Shown in pieces: positions 3,435 to 33,346 of a DNA stretch of 64,000 bases. Position numbers and translations under genes: made by a program. The notes beneath the pieces are model-generated. The model did no database searches. It saw only the letters and a list, made by a program, of their open reading frames with translations, and was not told where the DNA came from. Each line of letters opens with the position of its first letter. Position 1 is the first letter of the stretch. The stretch is taken from IMG/VR virus record IMGVR_UViG_3300013306_000001, positions 1-64,000 of that record. One strand, given 5' to 3'. This stretch comes from a virus.

Positions 3435-3764
3435 ATGGACAAGTACCAAGCTTTGTTTGTACGAGCAATTAAAAGTAAATCTCCCGACTTTCGTGTTAAA
3501 CGTCTTTACTCTAAGTTTTACTGTTCACAGGTATCTGAAATCCACATCTGTCGAGTAGTAAGTAAAATCGTAGAAAATAACAACTTAATGTCTACTAAAG
3601 ATTGGATTGATGGACTTAACCCCAGTAATGGTTGGATGTACGGTATTGATGAGAATACAAGCTACTACGAACGCTGCAACAAGTTAATGTACAGCTTTAT
3701 TCGATTAACCGAAATCAGCAAGTTTGATAAATTTCCTCTACCGGCATTCTGGAGAAACAAATGA
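3435..3764 (+). CDS. hypothetical protein
   Basis: 109 aa ORF, GAGGTG RBS. Confidence 0.75.
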   Translation: MDKYQALFVRAIKSKSPDFRVKRLYSKFYCSQVSEIHICRVVSKIVENNNLMSTKDWIDGLNPSNGWMYGIDENTSYYERCNKLMYSFIRLTEISKFDKFPLPAFWRNK

Positions 3765-25939: not shown

Positions 25940-26118
25940 AAATTGAAAAGTTTGATAAAAGTGTTTCCACAGTAAAATATAAGTTCGGCAGACTAGGATG
26001 GACGTTTCATTGGGTACATGAGCATTGCGATTCATTTACACTAATTGATTCTCATGGGATTTGGAGAGGTTTGTTCGGAAAATTAATCTGGTTAGAGAAG
26101 AAGTCTAACTATAAATAA
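25936..26118 (+). CDS. hypothetical protein
   Basis: Coupled (ATGA) 60 aa ORF. Confidence 0.55.
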   Translation: MKIEKFDKSVSTVKYKFGRLGWTFHWVHEHCDSFTLIDSHGIWRGLFGKLIWLEKKSNYK

Positions 26119-26134
26119 TTATTTTCACAAACAC

Positions 26135-26163
26135 TTGACTTTGAGAAATCTATAGAGTAGTAT
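26135..26163 (+). promoter_or_regulatory. sigma70-type promoter
   Basis: TTGACT-17-TAGTAT. Confidence 0.55.
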
Positions 26164-26205
26164 GTTTCTTATAGAACTTAAATAACTTTGTGTTGGAGGT
26201 GTAAT

Positions 26206-26397
26206 ATCAGATGCCGATGCTGTAATTTACCTCTTTCGTGGAGGAATTTTAAAATGAAACAAGACGATGGAAGTGAAGAAGACTTCTGTACAAACTGCTT
26301 AAACATTGTCTATAACATAGATCAGTACGAACCAAGACAGTATACGTTTGAGCAAGAGTGTGATCCTTTCCATATTCCAGAAACATATATAGAATAA
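26206..26397 (+). CDS. small Zn-finger protein, probable ATC start
   Basis: GGAGGTG SD 4 nt before the in-frame ATC; CRCC...CTNC motif. Confidence 0.55.
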   Translation: MRCRCCNLPLSWRNFKMKQDDGSEEDFCTNCLNIVYNIDQYEPRQYTFEQECDPFHIPETYIE

Positions 26398-26404
26398 ATA
26401 ATGC

Positions 26405-26433
26405 TTGCTATTGTCATGTAATAATGTTACAAT
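26405..26433 (+). promoter_or_regulatory. sigma70-type promoter for the RNA locus
   Basis: TTGCTA-17-TACAAT with TG. Confidence 0.6.
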
Positions 26434-26465
26434 GTTGTATGGATGATATGTTTTATCTGAAAGCA

Positions 26466-26878
26466 AGCCTTGGTGATATGGCACAACTCTAGCCATTTCC
26501 ATATGTTCGTCGGTAGGGTGAGAGTAAGGCTAAAAAGATTTATGAGAAGCCAGATAACCCTTCATTTGGTTATTGAAAGGTCAGACTACCACTGACGGCA
26601 GCTACTGGGATACTTTGATATTCTGGTCTGACGCTGACACAGCTTCTCACTTAACACATTCAATCTTGACGGAGATTGTCTAATTCCCTTTAAGGGGCTT
26701 GAAGAATTCTGACGAGAGTTTAAAGTCTTCCATTGTGTAACTGGGAGCAATGAATCAGCTGAAAGGCAAAAAGAGCATGCAGTTCAATTCTGCTCGGTAG
26801 CTGAGGGTTGGTACGCAACCGTTCGATTCGGTTCTGGTCTATCTGGTGATAGAAGCTTGACTGATGGAAAGACATCAC
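26466..26878 (+). ncRNA. large structured non-coding RNA, family unknown
   Basis: No credible ORF. Nested stems (TGAGAAGC/GCTTCTCA, TCAGACTA/TGGTCTGA, TCAGCT/AGCTGA) and two T-arm-like hairpins (GCAG-TTCAATT-CTGC, AACCG-TTCGATT-CGGTT). Confidence 0.55.
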
Positions 26879-26885
26879 AAATTTC

Positions 26886-26968
26886 GGATGAGTAGTCCCA
26901 GGATTCTTCTAAAGTCCTACGGGTAATTGGAACTGTAAATGTGGGATCGTACCCCATCTCATCCTCCA
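26886..26968 (+). tRNA. atypical tRNA-like RNA with Arg(UCU) anticodon loop
   Basis: Acceptor GGATGAG/CTCATCC-T-CCA, T arm GTGGG-ATCGTAC-CCCAT, hairpin AGGATT-CTTCTAA-AGTCCT; no D arm at the canonical position. Confidence 0.6.
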
Positions 26969-26977
26969 AAGTTTCAC

Positions 26978-27221
26978 CCACAATCACTAAGATTAAGTCT
27001 AAAAAGATTGTGGTATTCACGCTGTCATCTCCTCTCCTAAGACAGCACTTAAAGATATTTCAAGTCTCCTCTCACTCCTCATTCTTGAAATATCTTTGGC
27101 CTTGGATAGATTATAAGAGTTCTCTCCTTCTCGTATAATCTTCGCTAACAGGGCCATTTCTTAAGCGTTCTTCTTCATTATGAATACTACAGGGCATAGC
27201 CGGTAAGTTCGCTTAAGAAAT
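26978..27221 (+). ncRNA. tandem hairpin array with CUCCU (anti-SD) loops
   Basis: Five consecutive hairpins; three loops carry five copies of CTCCT in total. Confidence 0.6.
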
Positions 27222-27245
27222 CACTTATTCATAGGAATATACATT

Positions 27246-27644
27246 ATGACTACCAAGAATAAAAACCCTAGTCTGGCAACAAGATTTGACGGTCCAAAGT
27301 CAAATCGTAAAACCACTGGCGGAAATAGCAAACGAATCACTAAAAGCAAGCTTCGCATCCTAGAAGAACAGTTGCTTGAGATGAAAGATAAAGCTCTTGA
27401 GAACATCAAGAAGAGTATCAACGGCGAGCAGATTGATACTGAACAGCTTGGCTCAAGTAAGTGGTTGGTTAACAGCATCGTAACAGTCAGTAAATCGGCT
27501 AATGCTGAAGAAATCTCTTACAACAAGCTTAAGTTTGAAGTGAAGGATTCTCTGGAAGCTGGTGAACAGACTCCTTCTGAAATCAAAGCAGAATTGAAAC
27601 CTCGTTTGAGTCTAGTTTATACAGAACCTGATCAAGACGAGTAA
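27246..27644 (+). CDS. putative terminase small subunit
   Basis: Basic N-terminus with TRF, helical 132 aa protein upstream of the packaging module; positional inference. Confidence 0.4.
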   Translation: MTTKNKNPSLATRFDGPKSNRKTTGGNSKRITKSKLRILEEQLLEMKDKALENIKKSINGEQIDTEQLGSSKWLVNSIVTVSKSANAEEISYNKLKFEVKDSLEAGEQTPSEIKAELKPRLSLVYTEPDQDE

Positions 27645-27755
27645 CTAACACGGCCACGGCCTGTGTATCGGACTGCCTAGTCTAAACCCGTACTTCTGGC
27701 GAAGTACATCTGTTAGTGAAAGGGATGGCCGTCCTTGTCTTGCCACATCAAGACT
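27644..27755 (+). ncRNA. small multi-hairpin structured RNA candidate
   Basis: ACTAACA/TGTTAGT stem; hairpins GGC-CACG-GCC, GGACT-GCCT-AGTCT, GTACTTC-TGGC-GAAGTAC and GTCTTG-CCACAT-CAAGAC. Confidence 0.4.
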
Positions 27756-27789
27756 AGCTAGCACTTATTTAATCTATGTGGAGATATAT

Positions 27790-27879
27790 GGAACAGACGC
27801 CAGTATTAGTTTGCTGGCATCCACCTCATAAGTGGAAGTCTTTTGACCGTTGCGAGTGCAATTCTCGCCTGTTCCCCCA
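27790..27879 (+). tRNA. atypical tRNA, anticodon CAT (Met or Ile2)
   Basis: Acceptor GGAACAG/CTGTTCC-C-CCA; anticodon arm TCCAC-CTCATAA-GTGGA; T arm GCGAG-TGCAATT-CTCGC; 7-bp D stem; long variable arm. Confidence 0.7.
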
Positions 27880-27885
27880 AATTCT

Positions 27886-28614
27886 ATGAAATACACTAAA
27901 GAAATACTTAAACAGAAACTGCTGGATTTTGTTGAAATATATAATAGGAATCCCACTGGCAGAGACTGTAAAAAGTACCCAGAAATATTAGTCGGTAAAA
28001 ATACTTTCGTCAGATATTTTGGCTCATTTAATTCAGCCATTTTATATGCAGGACTAATTCCCTATACGAGAGATTTAAGAGACTATAAAACTATTTCTTG
28101 TGAATTCTGCAATATTGAGTTTATAGATAAAACTTGTGAAGCTAAGTTTTGTTCGAAGTCTTGTTATAATTCTTCAAGGAAAGATCAAGCTAAAAATAGC
28201 AAACCCGACATAGTTATAAAGGTTTGCTTAGAGTGTAATTGTTCATTTGAATCTGACAAAAAGAGCAGAAAGGGAAATTTCTGTAATTTTATTTGTAGGT
28301 CTACCAATCAGATGAAGAACACTTCAATTGGTGAGATGTCTAGATATACTGAACAAAATAAATACCGAGCTATTAGAGATAAAGCACATAATTTCTATAA
28401 CACTTTTGGTAAAAGTTGTTCTTGTGCAAATTGCGGTTACTCAAAGCATGTTGAGCTTTGTCATATAAAGGCAATTACTGATTTTGATAAATCAGAAAGT
28501 GTTTGGGAATGCAATAAACCCGAAAACATTATATTCTTATGTCCTAACTGTCACTGGGAGCTAGACTATGGCGACCTTTCAGTAGAAGATATAAGGGTTT
28601 GTAATTTGTCGTAA
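27886..28614 (+). CDS. HNH endonuclease with Zn-finger repeats, inserted in the tRNA locus
   Basis: N-terminal YTKE.L...YFGSFN.A repeat, CxxC/FCSKSC modules and CANCG...ELCHIK...N.IFLCPNCH HNH motif; ATG at 27886. Confidence 0.8.
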   Translation: MKYTKEILKQKLLDFVEIYNRNPTGRDCKKYPEILVGKNTFVRYFGSFNSAILYAGLIPYTRDLRDYKTISCEFCNIEFIDKTCEAKFCSKSCYNSSRKDQAKNSKPDIVIKVCLECNCSFESDKKSRKGNFCNFICRSTNQMKNTSIGEMSRYTEQNKYRAIRDKAHNFYNTFGKSCSCANCGYSKHVELCHIKAITDFDKSESVWECNKPENIIFLCPNCHWELDYGDLSVEDIRVCNLS

Positions 28615-28638
28615 GTTCAAGTCTTACTGGACCCACCC
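28595..28638 (+). pseudogene. tRNA 3'-half remnant
   Basis: T arm GTAAG-TTCAAGT-CTTAC followed by TGGACCC-ACCC, overlapping the HNH stop codon. Confidence 0.45.
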
Positions 28639-28786
28639 TACATTATAGTCAATTATATTCTTTGGTATAATTGATTCATGTGAAAGCAGACAAGGGCTGT
28701 CCAACTAAAAGCCTATGTTGTCTGTCTATAGGCTATAATACCCTTAAAACAAGACACCTAAAATAAATACAATATAAGGTGTTGCA

Positions 28787-29050
28787 ATGTCAGATACGAT
28801 TGCAGATGTTATCTTAGATAACGTTAATTATCAGAATGTGAATGCTCTTTCAGGAATTCCTGTAGGAACTAAAGTTCTTCTCCAGTTCAAGGGTAGCGGT
28901 AACGTAAGGGTACAACTTAAACCATTTCAACCAGCCAGCTCTTCTGCCGACGGTCTTCAGTTGATCTCCTTTGAGATGTACATGATTGATCAAGGAGAGT
29001 CAATCATTTGGGCAAAGGGCACAGGCCGCCTTTGCGTACAGGTGGCTTGA
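28787..29050 (+). CDS. small beta-rich virion-associated protein
   Basis: 87 aa, coupled to the downstream fibre gene. Confidence 0.55.
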   Translation: MSDTIADVILDNVNYQNVNALSGIPVGTKVLLQFKGSGNVRVQLKPFQPASSSADGLQLISFEMYMIDQGESIIWAKGTGRLCVQVA

Positions 29051-30529: not shown

Positions 30530-30913
30530 ATGGCAACTCAACAAATTGTAGTGAGTTCAGCAAATCCTGTAGAATTTATTAAGCGTGTCATTGAGCTTAG
30601 TAAACAAGGCGCTGTCCTTAAAGATAATACTTGTCCTCGACTTCGTACACTTCCTTTTATTGCTGAGTTTACTTTCGAGCTTAGTGGCACAGAAGAGTTG
30701 AAGACTAGCCCTGGTGTGAATGCTATCCCTGTAGCGCTTAGTGACAAGGTTTACACTAAAGAGCAGCTTGAAGCTATGCCTATCGAGGATATGCGCCCTG
30801 TTGTAGCTAGTCGGGGTGTTAAGGGCAGGGACAAGCTTAAAATGATTAAGCAATATCTTGCTGCTGTAGAAAGTGGTAAGGATGCAGATGAGTCTTCGGG
30901 AGAAGACGAATAA
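30530..30913 (+). CDS. hypothetical protein with C-terminal Rho-N/LEM-like helix pair
   Basis: YTKEQLEAMPIEDMR...GVKGRDK.KMI; GGAG RBS. Confidence 0.65.
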   Translation: MATQQIVVSSANPVEFIKRVIELSKQGAVLKDNTCPRLRTLPFIAEFTFELSGTEELKTSPGVNAIPVALSDKVYTKEQLEAMPIEDMRPVVASRGVKGRDKLKMIKQYLAAVESGKDADESSGEDE

Positions 30914-31049: not shown

Positions 31050-31637
31050 ATGAATGAAGTATTACTTACCCACGAGTATTTAAAAGAAGCTTTAACTTAT
31101 AATCCAGAAACTGGAAAGTTTACTTGGAGGTTGGATAGACCAGATTCACACTTCAAAGATTGGAGAGGTAAGAATGGCTTCTATAGTAATATTAGTCCTT
31201 CCTTAGAGGCGGGATCAGTATCAAGAGTGACCAAGAGAAATCCTTCATCATATATTGTAATCGGCCTTTGTGGAAAGCTTTATAAAGCCCACCGCCTTGC
31301 CTGGTTTTATGTAAACGGTGAATGGCCGTCCGAAGATATTGATCATATTGATTTAAATACTCAAAATAACGCAATATCTAATTTACAACTTAGTATTGAT
31401 AAACTTAACCACAGAAACCGTTCCAAATACAGTAATAATTCTTCTGGAGTTGTTGGTGTATCTTTCCATAAAAAGACTGGTAAATGGCAAGCTGAAGGTC
31501 AAGAAATTGTTGACGGTAAGAGAGTCAGACACTATTTAGGTCTATTTAAAAATCTAGAAGATGCAGCAAATGCTCGAAGAGATTGGGAAGTCGCGTACGG
31601 ATATTCTGAAAATCATGGTAAAGAAATTTCCAGATGA
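31050..31637 (+). CDS. HNH-AP2 homing endonuclease
   Basis: L.YNPETGKFTW, YKAHRLAWFY..GEWP..IDHID...NN.ISNL and NSSGVVGVSF...KWQA...YLGLF. Confidence 0.9.
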   Translation: MNEVLLTHEYLKEALTYNPETGKFTWRLDRPDSHFKDWRGKNGFYSNISPSLEAGSVSRVTKRNPSSYIVIGLCGKLYKAHRLAWFYVNGEWPSEDIDHIDLNTQNNAISNLQLSIDKLNHRNRSKYSNNSSGVVGVSFHKKTGKWQAEGQEIVDGKRVRHYLGLFKNLEDAANARRDWEVAYGYSENHGKEISR

Positions 31638-33346
31638 CAGATATGGATTATAGTTTCCAGCCAGCTTCGCGAAAGCAAAGCTGGTTCTTGGCTAGCAATA
31701 GTAATATCATTGTATATGGTGGTGAACTTAGCGCCTCCATTTAAAACCCCTCTAATTCGGTGAAACCCAAACGTAAAGACGTGGGTAATACCGAGCGAAG
31801 ACTTATTTATAAGTAACGTGTAGAGACTAACGCTGATGAATGTAAGCGAGTAGGTTGCAAGTGCAATCGAAACGGGGGGCTACGAAAGTAGAAGATATAG
31901 TCCGATCCTTTGCGAAAGCGAAGAGAGTTTAACGAACTCTATAACTAAAAGGCTATGGGTGGTGGCAAGTCCTATTGTGGTTTGCTACGACATCTCCGCT
32001 GGGTTGACGATCCTCAGTATCGTGGATTCATTATCCGTAAAAACCAAACAACTTTGATGAAAGCTTCTGGTTTGTTTGACGAAGCTACCAGCTTATATAA
32101 AGCGTTTGATCCTAAAGTAAAAATTAACAAAAAGGCTATGACCTTTACGTTCCCAAGTGGTGCCATTATTGCCATGTCTCACTTGGAAACTGACGAAGAT
32201 GCAGAGAAATTTCGTGGCCTCCAAATTTCCGGGGCGATGATAGATGAAGCCACTCAGATAACCGAAGACCATACTCTGGTTGTATTATCTCGGCTGCGTT
32301 CTAAAGCAAAGATGGTTCCCAATCTTTTCCTGACTTGTAACCCTTCACCTGATTCTTTTTTGAGACGTTGGATTGATTGGTGGATTATTCCAAAAGGAGA
32401 AGAAAACGAAGGTCGGCCCGACCCCGAACGGGATGGTAAAGTTCGTTGGTTTATTCGAATCGCTGGTGACATGATTTGGGCAGACACAAAAGAGGAACTC
32501 CTGGAGATATACGGCAACAGAGACGGTGAAGGTAATATTTTACCGGACACAGATGAAAAACAACATTGTCGTCCACTGTCCCTACAGTTTATTTCAGCCA
32601 CAATCTACGATAATCCGCCACTTATTAAATCCAACCCCGGATATCTTGCAAACCTTCAAGGTCTCAAGCGCGTAAAAAAGGAGCGCGACCTTTACGGGAA
32701 CTGGGATATTCGTGAGGATGCCGCAGGATTTTGGAAAGCGGAGTGGCTGGGTGAGCCCGTAAATGAATATGATTTAAATATTGTTCAATATTGTCGTGCA
32801 TGGGATATTGCCGGAAGTTTACCTTGTGAAGCGTTGCCAAATCCTGATTGGACTGCTGGCGTTTTAATGGGTAAAACAAAAGAAGGTCTATATATCATTC
32901 TAGATGTTGTTCGATTTAGGGCAAGATTTGGAGAGGTGATGCAGCGCATTGTAGAGACGGGCTTAGATGACCCCGATGGTACTCAAATCATTATTCCACA
33001 AGAGCCGGGCCAGGCAGGTAAAGCTGCTGGACAAATGATGATTAAAGAACTTATTTCTGAAGGTCTTTTCGCAAGAATGCGCCCGTCTAATAAGTCTAAG
33101 GTTGTACGGTTTCAACCAGTAGTTTCGGCATCGGAAGCGGGTCTTGTTCGTTATGTTCGCGGTGCATGGAATGATGCTTATTTCTCAGAGATGGAAGGCT
33201 TCGATGGAACCCGCGCTGTGAAGGATGACCAAGTTGATGCAACTAGTGACTCATTCATTACATTAGCACAGAAAATCCATATTGGTAATTTTCTTGGTGG
33301 TTTAGTAACTGCTGACCTCTCAACTAAAAATCCATTTAATCGCTAA
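31634..33346 (+). CDS. terL: terminase large subunit, two exons (31634-31723 and 31952-33346), 494 aa after splicing
   Basis: Splicing restores Walker A IIVYGG|AMGGGKS; Walker B MIDEA, LTCNP, RAWD and DDQVDA nuclease motifs. Confidence 0.9.
31724..31951 (+). mobile_element. group I intron without internal ORF (228 nt)
   Basis: P AATTCGGTGAAA, Q AATACCGAGC, R GTAGAGACTA, S AAGATATAGTCC. P1 with U.G splice pair, P10 TAGC/GCTA and terminal G at 31951. Confidence 0.9.

What the first reader, a model, noticed from the sequence alone, without database searches (positions are those of the whole stretch)
26405..28640. Candidate undescribed phage RNA toolkit locus acting on translation
Seen: after a sigma70-like promoter (26405) come, in order, a ~410-nt structured RNA, a rearranged tRNA-like RNA, an anti-SD hairpin array, a putative TerS gene, a multi-hairpin RNA, an atypical tRNA(CAU), an HNH gene and a tRNA remnant. 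No canonical tRNA was seen. Inference: a polycistronic RNA cut at the tRNA-like elements by RNase P/RNase Z-type processing, releasing regulators or decoys that reshape translation late in infection. This is the best candidate for a new system in the window.
Basis: partly seen in the sequence, partly recalled or inferred. Interest (0 to 1): 0.75.

Follow-up and report, generated by a model that had tools for sequence, protein, structure and literature searches.

The report
Phage tRNA island with rearranged tRNAs
This stretch of a 90-kb soil phage is its variable tRNA and small-RNA region, and its most interesting part is a transfer-RNA-like gene whose inner parts are in a swapped order, a build that recurs in many phages and that standard tRNA finders mostly miss.

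Summary
Most of the listed elements are real, but they are a mosaic, not one system. Confirmed:
- A rearranged tRNA-like RNA, anticodon loop UCU (26886-26968).
- Three hairpins with CUCUCCU loops (27021-27141).
- A conserved multi-hairpin RNA after a 132-aa gene (27645-27789).
- An atypical 90-nt tRNA(CAU).
- An HNH gene that overwrote the 5' part of a canonical tRNA-Met, leaving its 3' 35-47 nt.

Not confirmed:
- The '410-nt structured RNA': fold z -0.13; it is four shuffled modules.
- The TerS label.

The rearranged tRNA belongs to a class of 56 distinct sequences with anticodons UCU, UCG, GAU and UAU. 95.7-98.8% of cells pair, and 12-20 of 22 pairs show compensatory changes. It sits inside phage tRNA arrays (68 of 75 instances have a tRNA within 1 kb). 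ARAGORN called 10 of 75, and the window's copy has no Rfam match. None of 40 pattern hits in bacterial and archaeal genomes was real.

Best reading: a co-transcribed tRNA/small-RNA island at the head of the late genes. Unusually built but working tRNAs replace the canonical ones of sister phages, next to homing-endonuclease turnover and two regulatory RNAs around p132. Processing, charging and any decoy role are untested. Earlier notes of this scan had already flagged the hairpin array.

The parts
26405..26433 (+). Sigma-70-like promoter candidate, TTGCTA-17 nt-TACAAT with an upstream TG
   Evidence: 26402-26453 is 77-82% conserved in L008, L053, L058 and L061. Not above chance as a class (11 found against 9.1 +/- 2.7).
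26468..26530 (+). Module A1: small structured RNA domain. Outer stem CCUUGG/CAAGG; inner stem AUAUGG/CCAUAU.
   Evidence: Eight sequences (A13): 9 of 19 predicted pairs have compensatory changes. The inner stem covaries by eye (UAUGG/CCAUA, ACAGA/UCUGU, GCAGA/UCUGC). In L004, L043 and L052 it lies just before P1 of the RNA that follows p132; in L045 it also lies downstream of p132, about 70 nt further off.
26561..26652 (+). Module A2: conserved, function unknown
   Evidence: 80% identical in L008, 84% in L052 (contiguous with B), and present in L173.
26653..26755 (+). Module B: about 104 nt, nearly invariant, function unknown
   Evidence: 90-95% identical in L003, L004 and L026/L044, whose flanks are unrelated; also in L052 and L173, there together with A2. 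Fold z +0.32 and no compensatory pair. Sharp boundary at 26652/26653 in RNA-library contigs, and highest depth in X23.
26774..26883 (+). Module C: three hairpins. Two are T-arm-like (26779-26793, loop UUCAAUU; 26817-26833, loop UUCGAUU). The third is UGAUG-GAAAGA-CAUCA (26862-26877).
   Evidence: 82% identical to L058 2587-2695, which follows tRNA-Asn directly. The second hairpin is fully compensated, AACCG/CGGTT against GTGGG/CCCAC. The third hairpin also occurs in the RNA after p132 of L007 and L040.
26886..26968 (+). Rearranged-core tRNA-like RNA, anticodon loop CUUCUAA (UCU, Arg). In order: acceptor GGAUGAG/CUCAUCC; UA; GUCC; C; hairpin AGGAUU-CUUCUAA-AGUCCU; AC; GGGU; AAUUGGAA; CUGUAAAU; T arm GUGGG-AUCGUAC-CCCAU; U; CCA.
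   Evidence: 98.8% of cells paired, 12 of 22 pairs compensatory, 0 of 500 shuffles as high; 98.2 bits; the only match in the window.
26971..27221 (+). Leader of p132. It starts with GUUUCACC, then hairpin H0 (26978-27013), three hairpins with CU-rich loops (27021-27046, 27049-27099, 27108-27141 inside 27098-27155), and a long hairpin H4 (27156-27221).
   Evidence: z -7.22. Hairpins listed. 16 of 35 family loci have 3 or more such hairpins within 400 nt upstream of p132, against 9 of 1022 control windows; 35 of 71 loops hold CTCTCCT. 74 of 542 stem pairs are G-U. Weak likeness to Rfam ar14 (17.8 bits, gathering 58.8).
   Evidence: 76-98% identical in 8 relatives. 148 homologues, none named beyond 'hypothetical' and one 'phage gp46-like'. 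No Pfam, PHROG, NCBIfam or PDB match. 12 of 54 remote relatives match DUF5681, and 1 of 54 matches Mu Gp27 at E 0.0095.
27645..27789 (+). Conserved multi-hairpin RNA after p132: P1 (27648-27666), GUAUC, P2 (27670-27683, loop UGCCUA), P3 (27690-27707, loop UGGC), and further hairpins up to GUGGAGA (27778-27784)
   Evidence: Family found in 28 fetched stretches. A10 (23 sequences): 7 of 14 predicted pairs have compensatory changes, 5 of them in P3. No Rfam match in five full-length relatives or in the window.
27790..27879 (+). 90-nt tRNA(CAU) with a long variable arm, T loop UGCAAUU, and C + CCA at the 3' end
   Evidence: ARAGORN. No RF00005 match at E<=10. Against L003 there are compensatory changes in the acceptor stem (G2-C71 to C-G), the anticodon stem (UCCAC/GUGGA to CUCGC/GCGAG) and the T stem (GCGAG/CUCGC to GUGAG/CUCAC). 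Found only in the window, L014 and the contig of L003.
27886..28614 (+). HNH homing endonuclease gene
   Evidence: PF13391 HNH_2 at 27.7 bits (cut-off 21) and HNH_repeat at 20.8 bits, below its cut-off of 26. phrog_1271 HNH endonuclease, E 3.5e-9. 100% identical in L014; a related HNH (33% identity) lies between the rearranged tRNA and the p132 relative in L012. Absent from L052, whose flank is otherwise the same.
28594..28640 (+). 3' remnant (T arm and acceptor 3' strand) of a canonical tRNA-Met, overlapping the end of the HNH ORF
   Evidence: Aligns to the 3' part of the tRNA-Met of L004 (4856-4931) and L052 (3884-3959). L052 continues with the same downstream sequence as window 28641-28690.

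Best explanation
The stretch is the hypervariable tRNA and small-RNA island at the start of the rightward (structural, late) gene block of a 90-kb phage. The phage belongs to a family of about 85-93-kb phages from soil, water and wastewater metagenomes.

The island is a mosaic of independent parts.

(a) Two structurally unusual but probably working tRNAs:
- A rearranged-core tRNA with anticodon UCU. The strand that normally forms the 3' side of the D stem, together with the whole anticodon arm, comes before the 5' strand of the D stem and the D loop. The D-stem-like helix therefore stacks directly under the anticodon hairpin.
- A 90-nt long-arm tRNA with anticodon CAU.
Both stand where sister phages carry canonical tRNA-Arg(UCU) and tRNA-Met.

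(b) A free-standing HNH homing endonuclease that has overwritten the 5' part of the canonical tRNA-Met gene.

(c) Two conserved RNA elements around the conserved gene p132:
- A 5' leader with three hairpins showing CUCUCCU. This is complementary to the AGGAGAG ribosome-binding sites typical of the phage's non-late genes.
- A multi-hairpin RNA in the 3' untranslated region.

(d) Four shuffled upstream modules (A1, A2, B, C).

Inferred, not shown:
- The whole region is transcribed rightward from the promoter-like site at 26405 and cut at the tRNA units by the host's tRNA-processing enzymes. This would free the tRNAs and set the 5' end of the hairpin-array RNA.
- The UCU tRNA is charged with arginine and serves AGA codons, which are twice as frequent in the late genes.
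- Its changed core may spare it from host enzymes that attack tRNAs.
For: tRNA status of 26886-26968:
- 11 homologues: 98.8% of cells paired, 12 of 22 pairs compensatory, 0 of 500 shuffles as high, slid controls 33-47% paired.
- 18 sequences: 96.9% paired, 18 of 22 compensatory.
- An independent set of 49 distinct metagenome sequences: 95.7% paired, 20 of 22 compensatory. The inner 4-bp helix is 89.3% paired, with 3 of 4 pairs changed on both sides.
- Context: 68 of 75 instances have an ARAGORN tRNA within 1 kb and 56 have three or more. In L016 it fills a slot between two tRNA-Leu genes at tRNA spacing.
- Same place as a canonical gene: in L004 tRNA-Arg(tct) 3677-3753 abuts the block homologous to window 26970 onward. 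In L003 it lies 357 nt upstream of that block.
- Identity letters: 41 of 42 Arg-type members have GGA, and 14 of 14 Ile-type members have GGU and discriminator A. A20 as the ArgRS identity element and A73 for IleRS are recalled knowledge.
- AGA is 12.7 per 1000 codons in late ORFs against 6.5 in the others.

tRNA(CAU): compensatory changes in three stems against L003. Canonical tRNA-Met sits at the equivalent place in L004 and L052.

HNH insertion.

Hairpin array: 16 of 35 against 9 of 1022; G-U pairs, so an RNA of the + strand.

Ribosome-binding sites: GGAGA(G) in 43 of 91 non-late genes against 4 of 30 late genes; GGAGAG in 14 of 91 against 0 of 30 (crude gene calls of my own).

RNA after p132.

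Co-transcription and processing: no real terminator, and GUUUCACC starts 0-2 nt after a tRNA end in 4 loci.
Against: - No RNA ends, no charging data and no host are known. The RNA libraries gave contigs only, and DNA carry-over cannot be excluded.
- The Rfam tRNA model gives no match to either tRNA-like gene, so function in translation is inferred from shape and context alone.
- 32 of 75 instances have a canonical tRNA of the same anticodon in the fetched locus. The rearranged form is therefore not simply a replacement there and could do something else.
- The discriminator base of Arg-type members varies: A 24, U 11, G 5.
- The alignments were fitted to the model, which favours its structure.
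- The ribosome-binding-site contrast rests on heuristic start choices, and the timing of the transcript is unknown.
- 7 of 35 family loci have no CU-loop hairpin within 400 nt upstream of p132.
- The promoter-like site is not statistically distinguishable from chance.
Confidence: 0.6

Rival explanations
1. The locus is a dedicated RNA toolkit. Its tRNA-like RNAs are not used in translation. They are decoys or processing handles: baits for host anticodon nucleases or other tRNA-directed defences, or mere RNase P/Z cutting sites that release regulatory RNAs.
For: - 32 of 75 rearranged members coexist with a canonical tRNA of the same anticodon in the same fetched locus, which fits a second, non-decoding role.
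- The anticodon loop CUUCUAA is invariant in the UCU type, as a bait would need.
- Phage tRNAs that counter tRNA-targeting defences are in print (PMC10264068, PMC11464382, PMC11555353; search listings and abstracts only).
- The hairpin array abuts tRNA ends.
Against: - The acceptor stem, T arm, 7-nt loop, isoacceptor-specific GGA/GGU and discriminator A in the Ile types are all kept. A bait for an anticodon nuclease would need only the anticodon arm.
- In the window's own family the rearranged form stands instead of the canonical gene, not beside it.
- AGA use is higher in late genes.
Confidence: 0.2
2. The RNAs around p132 (CU-loop array, RNA after p132, and perhaps modules A1 and C) are partners of the p132 protein. 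Together they form a ribonucleoprotein, for example an RNA-binding regulator with its operators. They would then not be free antisense-type regulators of ribosome-binding sites.
For: - p132 is flanked by these two RNA elements across relatives down to 41-54% protein identity.
- p132 has a basic N-terminal third.
- The same hairpin (GAAAGA loop) recurs in different modules, as protein operators do.
Against: - No RNA-binding domain was found.
- In L008 the array precedes another gene.
- 7 of 35 loci have no CU-loop hairpin within 400 nt upstream of p132, and 14 of 35 have fewer than two.
Confidence: 0.1
3. A decaying tRNA cluster: the odd tRNAs and T-arm-like hairpins are pseudogene debris left by endonuclease-driven rearrangement and have no function.
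For: - A true remnant exists (28594-28640).
- The modules are shuffled among relatives.
- The Rfam tRNA model finds nothing.
Against: - Compensatory changes in every helix across 56 distinct sequences from unrelated phages.
- Compensated stems in the tRNA(CAU), module C and module A1.

Debris would not keep base pairing.
Confidence: 0.05
4. The inverted repeats upstream of p132 act at the DNA level, as a packaging (pac/cos) or replication signal bound by a small terminase encoded by p132.
For: - Their position is upstream of a gene guessed to be TerS.
- The motif is repeated three times.
- 12 of 54 remote relatives of p132 match DUF5681, and one matches Mu Gp27 faintly. That Mu Gp27 is a small terminase is recalled, not tested.
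Against: - 74 of 542 stem pairs are G-U, and 41 of 64 hairpins hold at least one. These would be A-C mismatches on the other strand, so selection acts on a + strand RNA.
- The stems differ wholly between relatives while the loops are kept.
- p132 has no TerS match and lies 4.0 kb upstream of the start of TerL exon 1 (31637), with five ORFs between them.
Confidence: 0.05

Closest known systems
Phage tRNA gene clusters with free-standing homing endonucleases (T5 F-TflI/II/IV, T4 SegB; recalled from memory. The PA11 record names its HNH 'similar to Bacteriophage T5 H-N-H endonuclease TflI')
   Same: - tRNA genes lie in a variable block.
- An HNH gene is wedged between or into tRNA genes.
- Presence or absence varies among sister phages while the flanks are conserved.
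   Different: - This phage has no canonical tRNA left.
- The island also holds conserved non-tRNA RNAs.
Non-canonical tRNAs: D-armless mitochondrial tRNAs, tRNA-Sec, and allo-tRNAs with 8/4 or 9/3 acceptor branches (PMC7609411, passages read; PMC5389517, abstract in the listing)
   Same: - A tRNA that departs from the cloverleaf yet keeps the acceptor/T-arm branch and a 7-nt anticodon loop.
- It is missed by standard finders.
   Different: - No arm is lost and the 7/5 branch is kept.
- Instead the order of the parts is changed: D-stem 3' strand and anticodon arm first, D-stem 5' strand and D-loop-like stretch after.
- The review has 0 occurrences of 'phage' or 'permuted'.
Phage tRNAs that escape or neutralise tRNA-targeting defences (PMC10264068, PMC11464382, PMC11555353; listings and abstracts only)
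   Same: Phage-borne isoacceptors that duplicate host or phage tRNAs. Their altered features plausibly change recognition by nucleases.
   Different: - The published cases change anticodon-loop letters of otherwise canonical tRNAs.
- Here the loop is kept and the core topology is changed.
- No defence link was tested here.
Cuckoo / alpha-r14 family of small RNAs with CCUCCUCCC hairpin loops (Rfam RF02344; PMC4615179, abstract in the listing)
   Same: Consecutive hairpins with unrelated stems that display a pyrimidine-rich anti-Shine-Dalgarno-like motif in their loops.
   Different: - The loop motif is CUCUCCU, not CCUCCUCCC.
- The Rfam score is 17.8 bits against a gathering score of 58.8.
- It is phage-borne, lies in the leader of p132, and abuts a tRNA 3' end.
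T4 tRNA operon with co-processed small stable RNAs (species 1 and 2; recalled from memory, no call)
   Same: tRNAs and other small structured RNAs lie in one rightward block and are presumably matured by host tRNA-processing enzymes.
   Different: No transcript or processing data exist here, and the non-tRNA RNAs are unrelated in sequence.

Membership tests
Canonical tRNA (Rfam RF00005) | Match to the tRNA covariance model at or above 29 bits | tested here: not met
   0 matches in the whole genome even at E<=10, and none in 26400-27250 at E<=10. Canonical tRNAs of relatives score 47-69 bits.
Canonical tRNA (Rfam RF00005) | 7-bp acceptor stem, 5-bp T stem with a 7-nt loop, and a 7-nt anticodon loop with U33 and a purine at 37 | tested here: met
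   (helices 96.8-100% paired, with compensatory changes). The loop is CUUCUAA.
Canonical tRNA (Rfam RF00005) | Cloverleaf order: D stem-loop lies between the acceptor stem and the anticodon arm | tested here: not met
   The order is acceptor, UA, 4-nt strand, anticodon hairpin, complementary 4-nt strand, D-loop-like AAUUGGA, linker, T arm.
Canonical tRNA (Rfam RF00005) | Aminoacylation and use on the ribosome | not testable with these tools
   Indirect only: GGA in 41 of 42 Arg types and GGU in 14 of 14 Ile types.
Cuckoo / alpha-r14 small RNAs (RF02344) | Match at the gathering score, with CCUCCUCCC loops | tested here: not met
   17.8 bits against 58.8, E 0.69. The loop core is CUCUCCU in 35 of 71 loops.
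Terminase small subunit (for p132) | Match to a TerS family in Pfam, PHROGs, NCBIfam or PDB | tested here: not met
   No match for p132. Among 54 remote relatives, 12 match DUF5681 and 1 matches Mu Gp27 at E 0.0095; the four PHROG matches carry no function name.
Terminase small subunit (for p132) | Gene lies directly upstream of the large terminase gene | tested here: not met
   TerL exon 1 starts at 31637. HNH, p87, a 445-aa tail-fibre-like ORF, p127 and a second HNH lie between it and p132.
Terminase small subunit (for p132) | Oligomeric ring fold with an N-terminal DNA-binding domain | not testable with these tools
HNH homing endonuclease | HNH nuclease domain | tested here: met
   PF13391 at 27.7 bits (cut-off 21). 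HNH_repeat at 20.8 bits is below its cut-off of 26. phrog_1271.
HNH homing endonuclease | Insertion polymorphism: present or absent among relatives with conserved flanks | tested here: met
   L052 has an intact tRNA-Met followed by the same downstream sequence and no HNH. The window has the HNH plus the tRNA's 3' remnant.
Large ornate phage RNAs next to tRNAs (GOLLD, ROOL; considered for 26440-26885. Their presence in Rfam is recalled, not checked by a call) | Match to the Rfam models | tested here: not met
   No match for any Rfam family in 26000-29000 at E<=1, nor in 26400-27250 at E<=10. Fold z -0.13.

The most novel reading that the evidence does not exclude
Phages carry a so far undescribed topological isomer of tRNA. 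The D-stem 3' strand plus the anticodon arm are swapped with the D-stem 5' strand plus the D loop.

This isomer would still fold into an L shape, be charged (Arg for UCU/UCG, Ile for GAU/UAU) and decode on the ribosome. Its altered core would make it invisible to host enzymes that recognise and destroy canonical tRNAs.

In this phage family it is co-processed with an anti-Shine-Dalgarno hairpin RNA that would shut down the phage's own early messages (AGGAGAG sites) when late genes turn on.
Probability: 0.3. Interest if true: 0.85.

Novelty: new variant of a known kind. Interest (0 to 1): 0.72.

Why it matters
- The cloverleaf order of tRNA is among the most conserved designs in biology. If the rearranged RNAs are charged and decode, a natural tRNA with its core parts in another order would show that the L shape can be reached by a different strand path. 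That gives a new scaffold for tRNA engineering.
- ARAGORN called only 10 of 75 instances, and the GenBank records examined carry no tRNA annotation there. Counts of phage tRNAs would therefore be too low.
- The restriction to Arg and Ile anticodons, and the coexistence with canonical isoacceptors, point to a specific selective pressure, possibly host tRNA-directed defence. This can be tested in cultured Pseudomonas phages of the PA11 group, which carry a member.
- The CU-loop array and the RNA after p132 are two further conserved phage RNA motifs without an Rfam family.

Tried and rejected
- Rfam at gathering scores gave only the group I intron at 31698-31924. E-value scans of 26000-29000 and 26400-27250 gave only weak chance-level rows.
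- Relaxed ARAGORN (-ps90, -ps80) gave spurious intron-bearing calls that I did not use.
- My own T-arm-plus-acceptor scan found nested long-range pairings, 26578-26840 and 26601-26801. I rejected them because L008, which has A2, lacks any 3' partner.
- A hammerhead-like CUGACGA in module B was considered. There is no Rfam match and no stem II.
- Module B as a minus-strand ORF was rejected: L003 has a 1-nt indel there.
- The alternative pairing GYCC with GGARC for the inner helix was rejected. The UCG and GAU subfamilies pair the 4-nt strand that directly follows the anticodon hairpin.
- The pattern scan of 185,579 species genomes gave 40 stretches. My own estimate is that about 70 would arise by chance. 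None matched the model at E<=1e-6 or had the flanking motifs.
- RNA libraries X19, X22, X23 and X24 were contigs only. They showed no ends or strands, parts were without cover, and DNA carry-over is possible. The shares of words in other runs were small and say nothing about habitat.
- The protein atlas gave only unnamed viral clusters for p132, with DUF5681 on 37% of one cluster at rank 30.
- PDB sequence searches with two profiles gave nothing below E 0.68.
- The one paper that mentions DUF5681 only lists it among virion peptides (passages read).
- Paper searches for rearranged or D-arm-altered phage tRNAs found none (listings only, plus passages of PMC7609411).

Full report
**Context**

The window is the first 64 kb of a 90,095-bp virus record (39.6% G+C, ends overlapping). 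The best DNA holder is a rhizosphere metagenome, which may be the source.

Genes left of about 24.4 kb run leftward. From 24,581 they run rightward into tail-fibre-like, terminase, portal and other structural genes. The finding therefore lies at the head of the rightward block.

No cultured phage is close at the DNA level. Protein searches with the 132-aa ORF found 9 and then 36 related IMG/VR loci. Most come from 78-93-kb contigs, with protein identity ranging from 98% down to 41%.

**What standard tools see**

- ARAGORN finds one gene in the whole genome, a 90-nt tRNA-Met(cat) at 27790-27879.
- The Rfam tRNA model finds nothing, even at E<=10.
- Rfam finds no family in the finding's range.
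- The promoter-like site at 26405 exists and is conserved in four relatives. Such sites are not enriched over shuffles (11 against 9.1 +/- 2.7).
- The only terminator-like site is the anticodon stem of the tRNA(CAU).

**The rearranged tRNA (26886-26968)**

A BLAST hit of 80 nt at 78% identity to Pseudomonas phages of the PA11 group led to this element. There it is unannotated or overlaps the end of an HNH gene.

The alignment shows these parts, in order:
- a 7-bp acceptor stem;
- UA;
- a 4-nt strand, G(U/C)CC;
- one unpaired C;
- a 6-bp hairpin with the invariant loop CUUCUAA;
- two unpaired bases;
- GGGU;
- a D-loop-like AAUUGGA;
- a linker, CUG(A/U)AAAU;
- a 5-bp T stem with a 7-nt loop;
- the acceptor 3' strand and a discriminator;
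- in the window, CCA.

Covariation was tested on three sets.

| Set | Cells paired | Pairs with compensatory changes | Notes |
|---|---|---|---|
| 11 sequences | 98.8% | 12 of 22 | no shuffle of 500 as high; slid controls 33-47% paired |
| 18 sequences | 96.9% | 18 of 22 | aligned to the model |
| 49 distinct metagenome sequences, independent set | 95.7% | 20 of 22 | inner 4-bp helix 89.3% paired, 3 of 4 pairs changed on both sides (CG 32 / AU 10 / GC 2; CG 32 / GC 12) |

The last two alignments were fitted to the model, which leans towards its structure. The first was a plain MAFFT alignment.

A covariance model built from the 11 sequences finds one match in the window (98.2 bits). It also finds further members with other anticodons, while canonical tRNAs score 33 bits or less.

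The canonical tRNA-Arg of sister phage L003 has the D arm AUUC-AAUUGGAUA-GAAU. The rearranged form has GGGU followed by the same AAUUGGA. I therefore read GGGU as the equivalent of D-stem positions 10-13 and G(U/C)CC as positions 22-25. The block '22-25, 26, anticodon arm' has changed places with the block '10-13, D loop'.

The stacked inner helix plus anticodon stem has 10 pairs. This is the same number of layers as D stem plus 26 plus anticodon stem in a normal tRNA. That the L shape is kept is inference; nothing here tests the three-dimensional structure.

**Is it a tRNA in function?**

For:
- 68 of 75 instances have an ARAGORN tRNA within 1 kb, and 56 have three or more.
- In L016 it fills a slot between two tRNA-Leu genes.
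- In L004 a canonical tRNA-Arg(tct) occupies exactly the window's position, abutting the block homologous to 26970 onward. In L003 the canonical gene lies 357 nt upstream of that block.
- Among 56 distinct sequences the anticodons are UCU 37, UCG 5, GAU 13 and UAU 1.
- 41 of 42 Arg types read GGA in the D-loop-like stretch. All 14 Ile types read GGU and have discriminator A. From recalled knowledge, A20 is the main ArgRS identity element and A73 counts for IleRS.
- AGA is twice as frequent in late ORFs as elsewhere, 12.7 against 6.5 per 1000 codons.

Against, or open:
- 32 of 75 instances have a canonical tRNA of the same anticodon nearby.
- The Arg-type discriminator varies.
- No charging or expression data exist.

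Distribution and prior knowledge:
- ARAGORN itself of the 75, as 80-96-nt tRNAs.
- None of 40 pattern hits in one genome each of 185,579 bacterial and archaeal species is a member. On this sample the class looks phage-borne.
- Four paper searches and one review did not turn up such a tRNA.

**The 90-nt tRNA(CAU), the HNH gene and the remnant**

The tRNA(CAU) has a normal acceptor, D, anticodon and T stem layout. It differs in a 15-nt variable arm, a T loop UGCAAUU and C-CCA at the end.

Against L003 (86% identical) every difference inside a stem is compensated: one pair in the acceptor stem, three in the anticodon stem and one in the T stem. A pattern scan found it only in L014 and in the contig of L003, so the support rests on two distinct sequences.

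L004 and L052 have a canonical 76-nt tRNA-Met at the equivalent place after the RNA that follows p132.

The window's 28594-28640 is the T arm and acceptor 3' strand of that canonical gene. L052 continues with the same downstream sequence.

The HNH ORF (PF13391) fills the space between the tRNA(CAU) and the remnant. It thus replaced the 5' part of the canonical gene.

HNH genes also adjoin the rearranged tRNA in PA11 and L012. This is the known habit of homing endonucleases in phage tRNA clusters.

**The hairpin array**

26972-27245 is far more stable than shuffles (z -7.22).

Three consecutive hairpins display CU-rich loops.

| Measure | Result |
|---|---|
| Family loci with 3 or more such hairpins within 400 nt upstream of p132 | 16 of 35 |
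| Family loci with 2 or more | 21 of 35 |
| Control windows with 3 or more | 9 of 1022 |
| Control windows with 2 or more | 76 of 1022 |
| Family loci with none | 7 of 35 |
| Loops holding CTCTCCT | 35 of 71 |
| G-U pairs in the 64 hairpins of 21 loci | 74 of 542 |

The stems are unrelated between relatives, while the loops keep their motif. The G-U pairs show that the selected structure is an RNA of the + strand.

The module begins with GUUUCACC in 12 of 21 loci. In the window, L004, L039 and L059 that start lies 0-2 nt after a tRNA or tRNA-like 3' end.

The loop is complementary to AGGAGAG. By my crude gene calls, GGAGA(G) precedes 43 of 91 non-late genes but only 4 of 30 late genes. GGAGAG precedes 14 of 91 against 0 of 30.

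Two earlier first-reader notes of this scan had flagged the array and this match. I tested the match here only with heuristic start sites.

A sponge or antisense action on early messages is a reasonable hypothesis. A ribosomal protein S1 platform or a protein operator array are alternatives. None of these was tested.

**The RNA after p132**

Directly after the p132 stop codon, 28 fetched stretches share the following layout:
- P1;
- GUAUC;
- P2, with loop (U)GCCUAG;
- P3, with loop UGGC closed by U-G and C-G.

Full-length forms continue with:
- UGUAAAUG;
- P4, with loop GAAAGA;
- GUGGAGA;
- two more hairpins.

In a 23-sequence alignment, five of the seven P3 pairs and two P1 pairs have compensatory changes. 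P2 covaries by eye, but MAFFT misaligned it.

No Rfam family matches.

The window's copy has P1-P3 and GUGGAGA but a different middle. Its fold energy alone is unremarkable (z -0.94).

**The upstream 450 nt**

This is not one RNA (z -0.13). It consists of four modules.

- A1 (26468-26530) is a small domain with covarying outer and inner stems in eight sequences. In L004, L043 and L052 it lies just before P1 of the RNA after p132; in L045 it is also downstream of p132 but about 70 nt further off.
- A2 and B are contiguous in L052 and L173.
- B is 90-95% identical in phages whose flanks differ (L003, L004, L026/L044). It shows no compensatory pair and no excess stability.
- B has a sharp left boundary and the highest depth among contigs of one RNA library. 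That is not proof of transcription.
- C (26774-26883) recurs in L058 right after tRNA-Asn. One T-arm-like hairpin there is fully compensated.

I could not assign a function to A2, B or C.

**p132**

p132 is conserved. It has 148 homologues and 92 representative clusters, all unnamed but for one 'phage gp46-like' label.

It has no family or PDB match of its own.

Among 54 remote relatives, 12 match DUF5681 and one matches Mu Gp27 faintly.

p132 is not next to TerL. The TerS label is therefore a guess.

**Verdict**

It is a recombining island, not one system.

The part that deserves attention is the rearranged-core tRNA class. It is strongly supported as a structure, widespread in phage tRNA arrays, absent from Rfam and from the papers searched, and mostly missed by ARAGORN.

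Its function as a working tRNA is my preferred reading (about 0.6). A decoy role is the main rival (about 0.2).

Noticed in passing
window 31050-33346: The large terminase gene is split inside its Walker A region by an ORF-less group I intron (Rfam RF00028, 31698-31924, 71.5 bits). Exon 1 reads MTDMDYSFQPASRKQSWFLASNSNIIVYGG from 31637. Exon 2 resumes near 31949 with AMGGGKSY. A free-standing HNH gene (31050-31637) lies directly upstream.
   Followed up: partly
L016, L017, L019, L021, L023, L024 (phage tRNA arrays): Many arrays hold pairs of a canonical tRNA and an 82-94-nt version with a long variable arm and the same anticodon (Asn, Thr, Cys, Gly, Val, Pro, Met). These are anticodons that normally belong to short-arm tRNAs. 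The window's 90-nt tRNA(CAU) is of this second kind.
   Followed up: no
window 26653-26755 (module B); L003 2804-2905, L004 3489-3594, L026 6025-6128, L044 2384-2487, L052, L173: A ~104-nt block is 90-95% identical in phages whose flanking sequences are unrelated. It has a sharp left edge at 26652/26653 in contigs of several libraries and the highest depth in RNA library X23. There is no excess fold stability and no compensatory pair, so its nature is unexplained.
   Followed up: partly
many loci just after the p132 stop codon; before A1 in L043 and L045; before B in L003, L004 and L026: The heptamer AAAGAAU (AAAGAAC before B) precedes many of the RNA modules. It could be a processing site or part of a phage promoter.
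   Followed up: no
window 26862-26877; L007 and L040 after p132: The same hairpin, UGAUG-GAAAGA-CAUCA, occurs in module C of the window and as P4 of the RNA after p132 in relatives. The RNAs thus seem to be assembled from a shared set of hairpins.
   Followed up: partly
whole genome (G000), leftward genes at 8.3-24.4 kb and 57-80.6 kb, and rightward genes at 81-90 kb: The non-late genes favour an extended ribosome-binding site AGGAGA(G), whereas late structural genes use AGGAG(C/U) or AAGGA. This class difference exists independently of the hairpin array.
   Followed up: partly
LR745206.1 (uncultured phage, 634,780 bp) 388064-388148: A huge-phage record holds an 81% identical copy of the rearranged UCU tRNA. 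The record has no annotation.
   Followed up: no
window 30530-30913: A 127-aa ORF with an acidic tail lies upstream of the HNH gene and TerL, separated from TerL only by that HNH gene. By position it is as good a small-terminase candidate as p132. Its only match is a weak one to DUF7440 (E 0.012).
   Followed up: no
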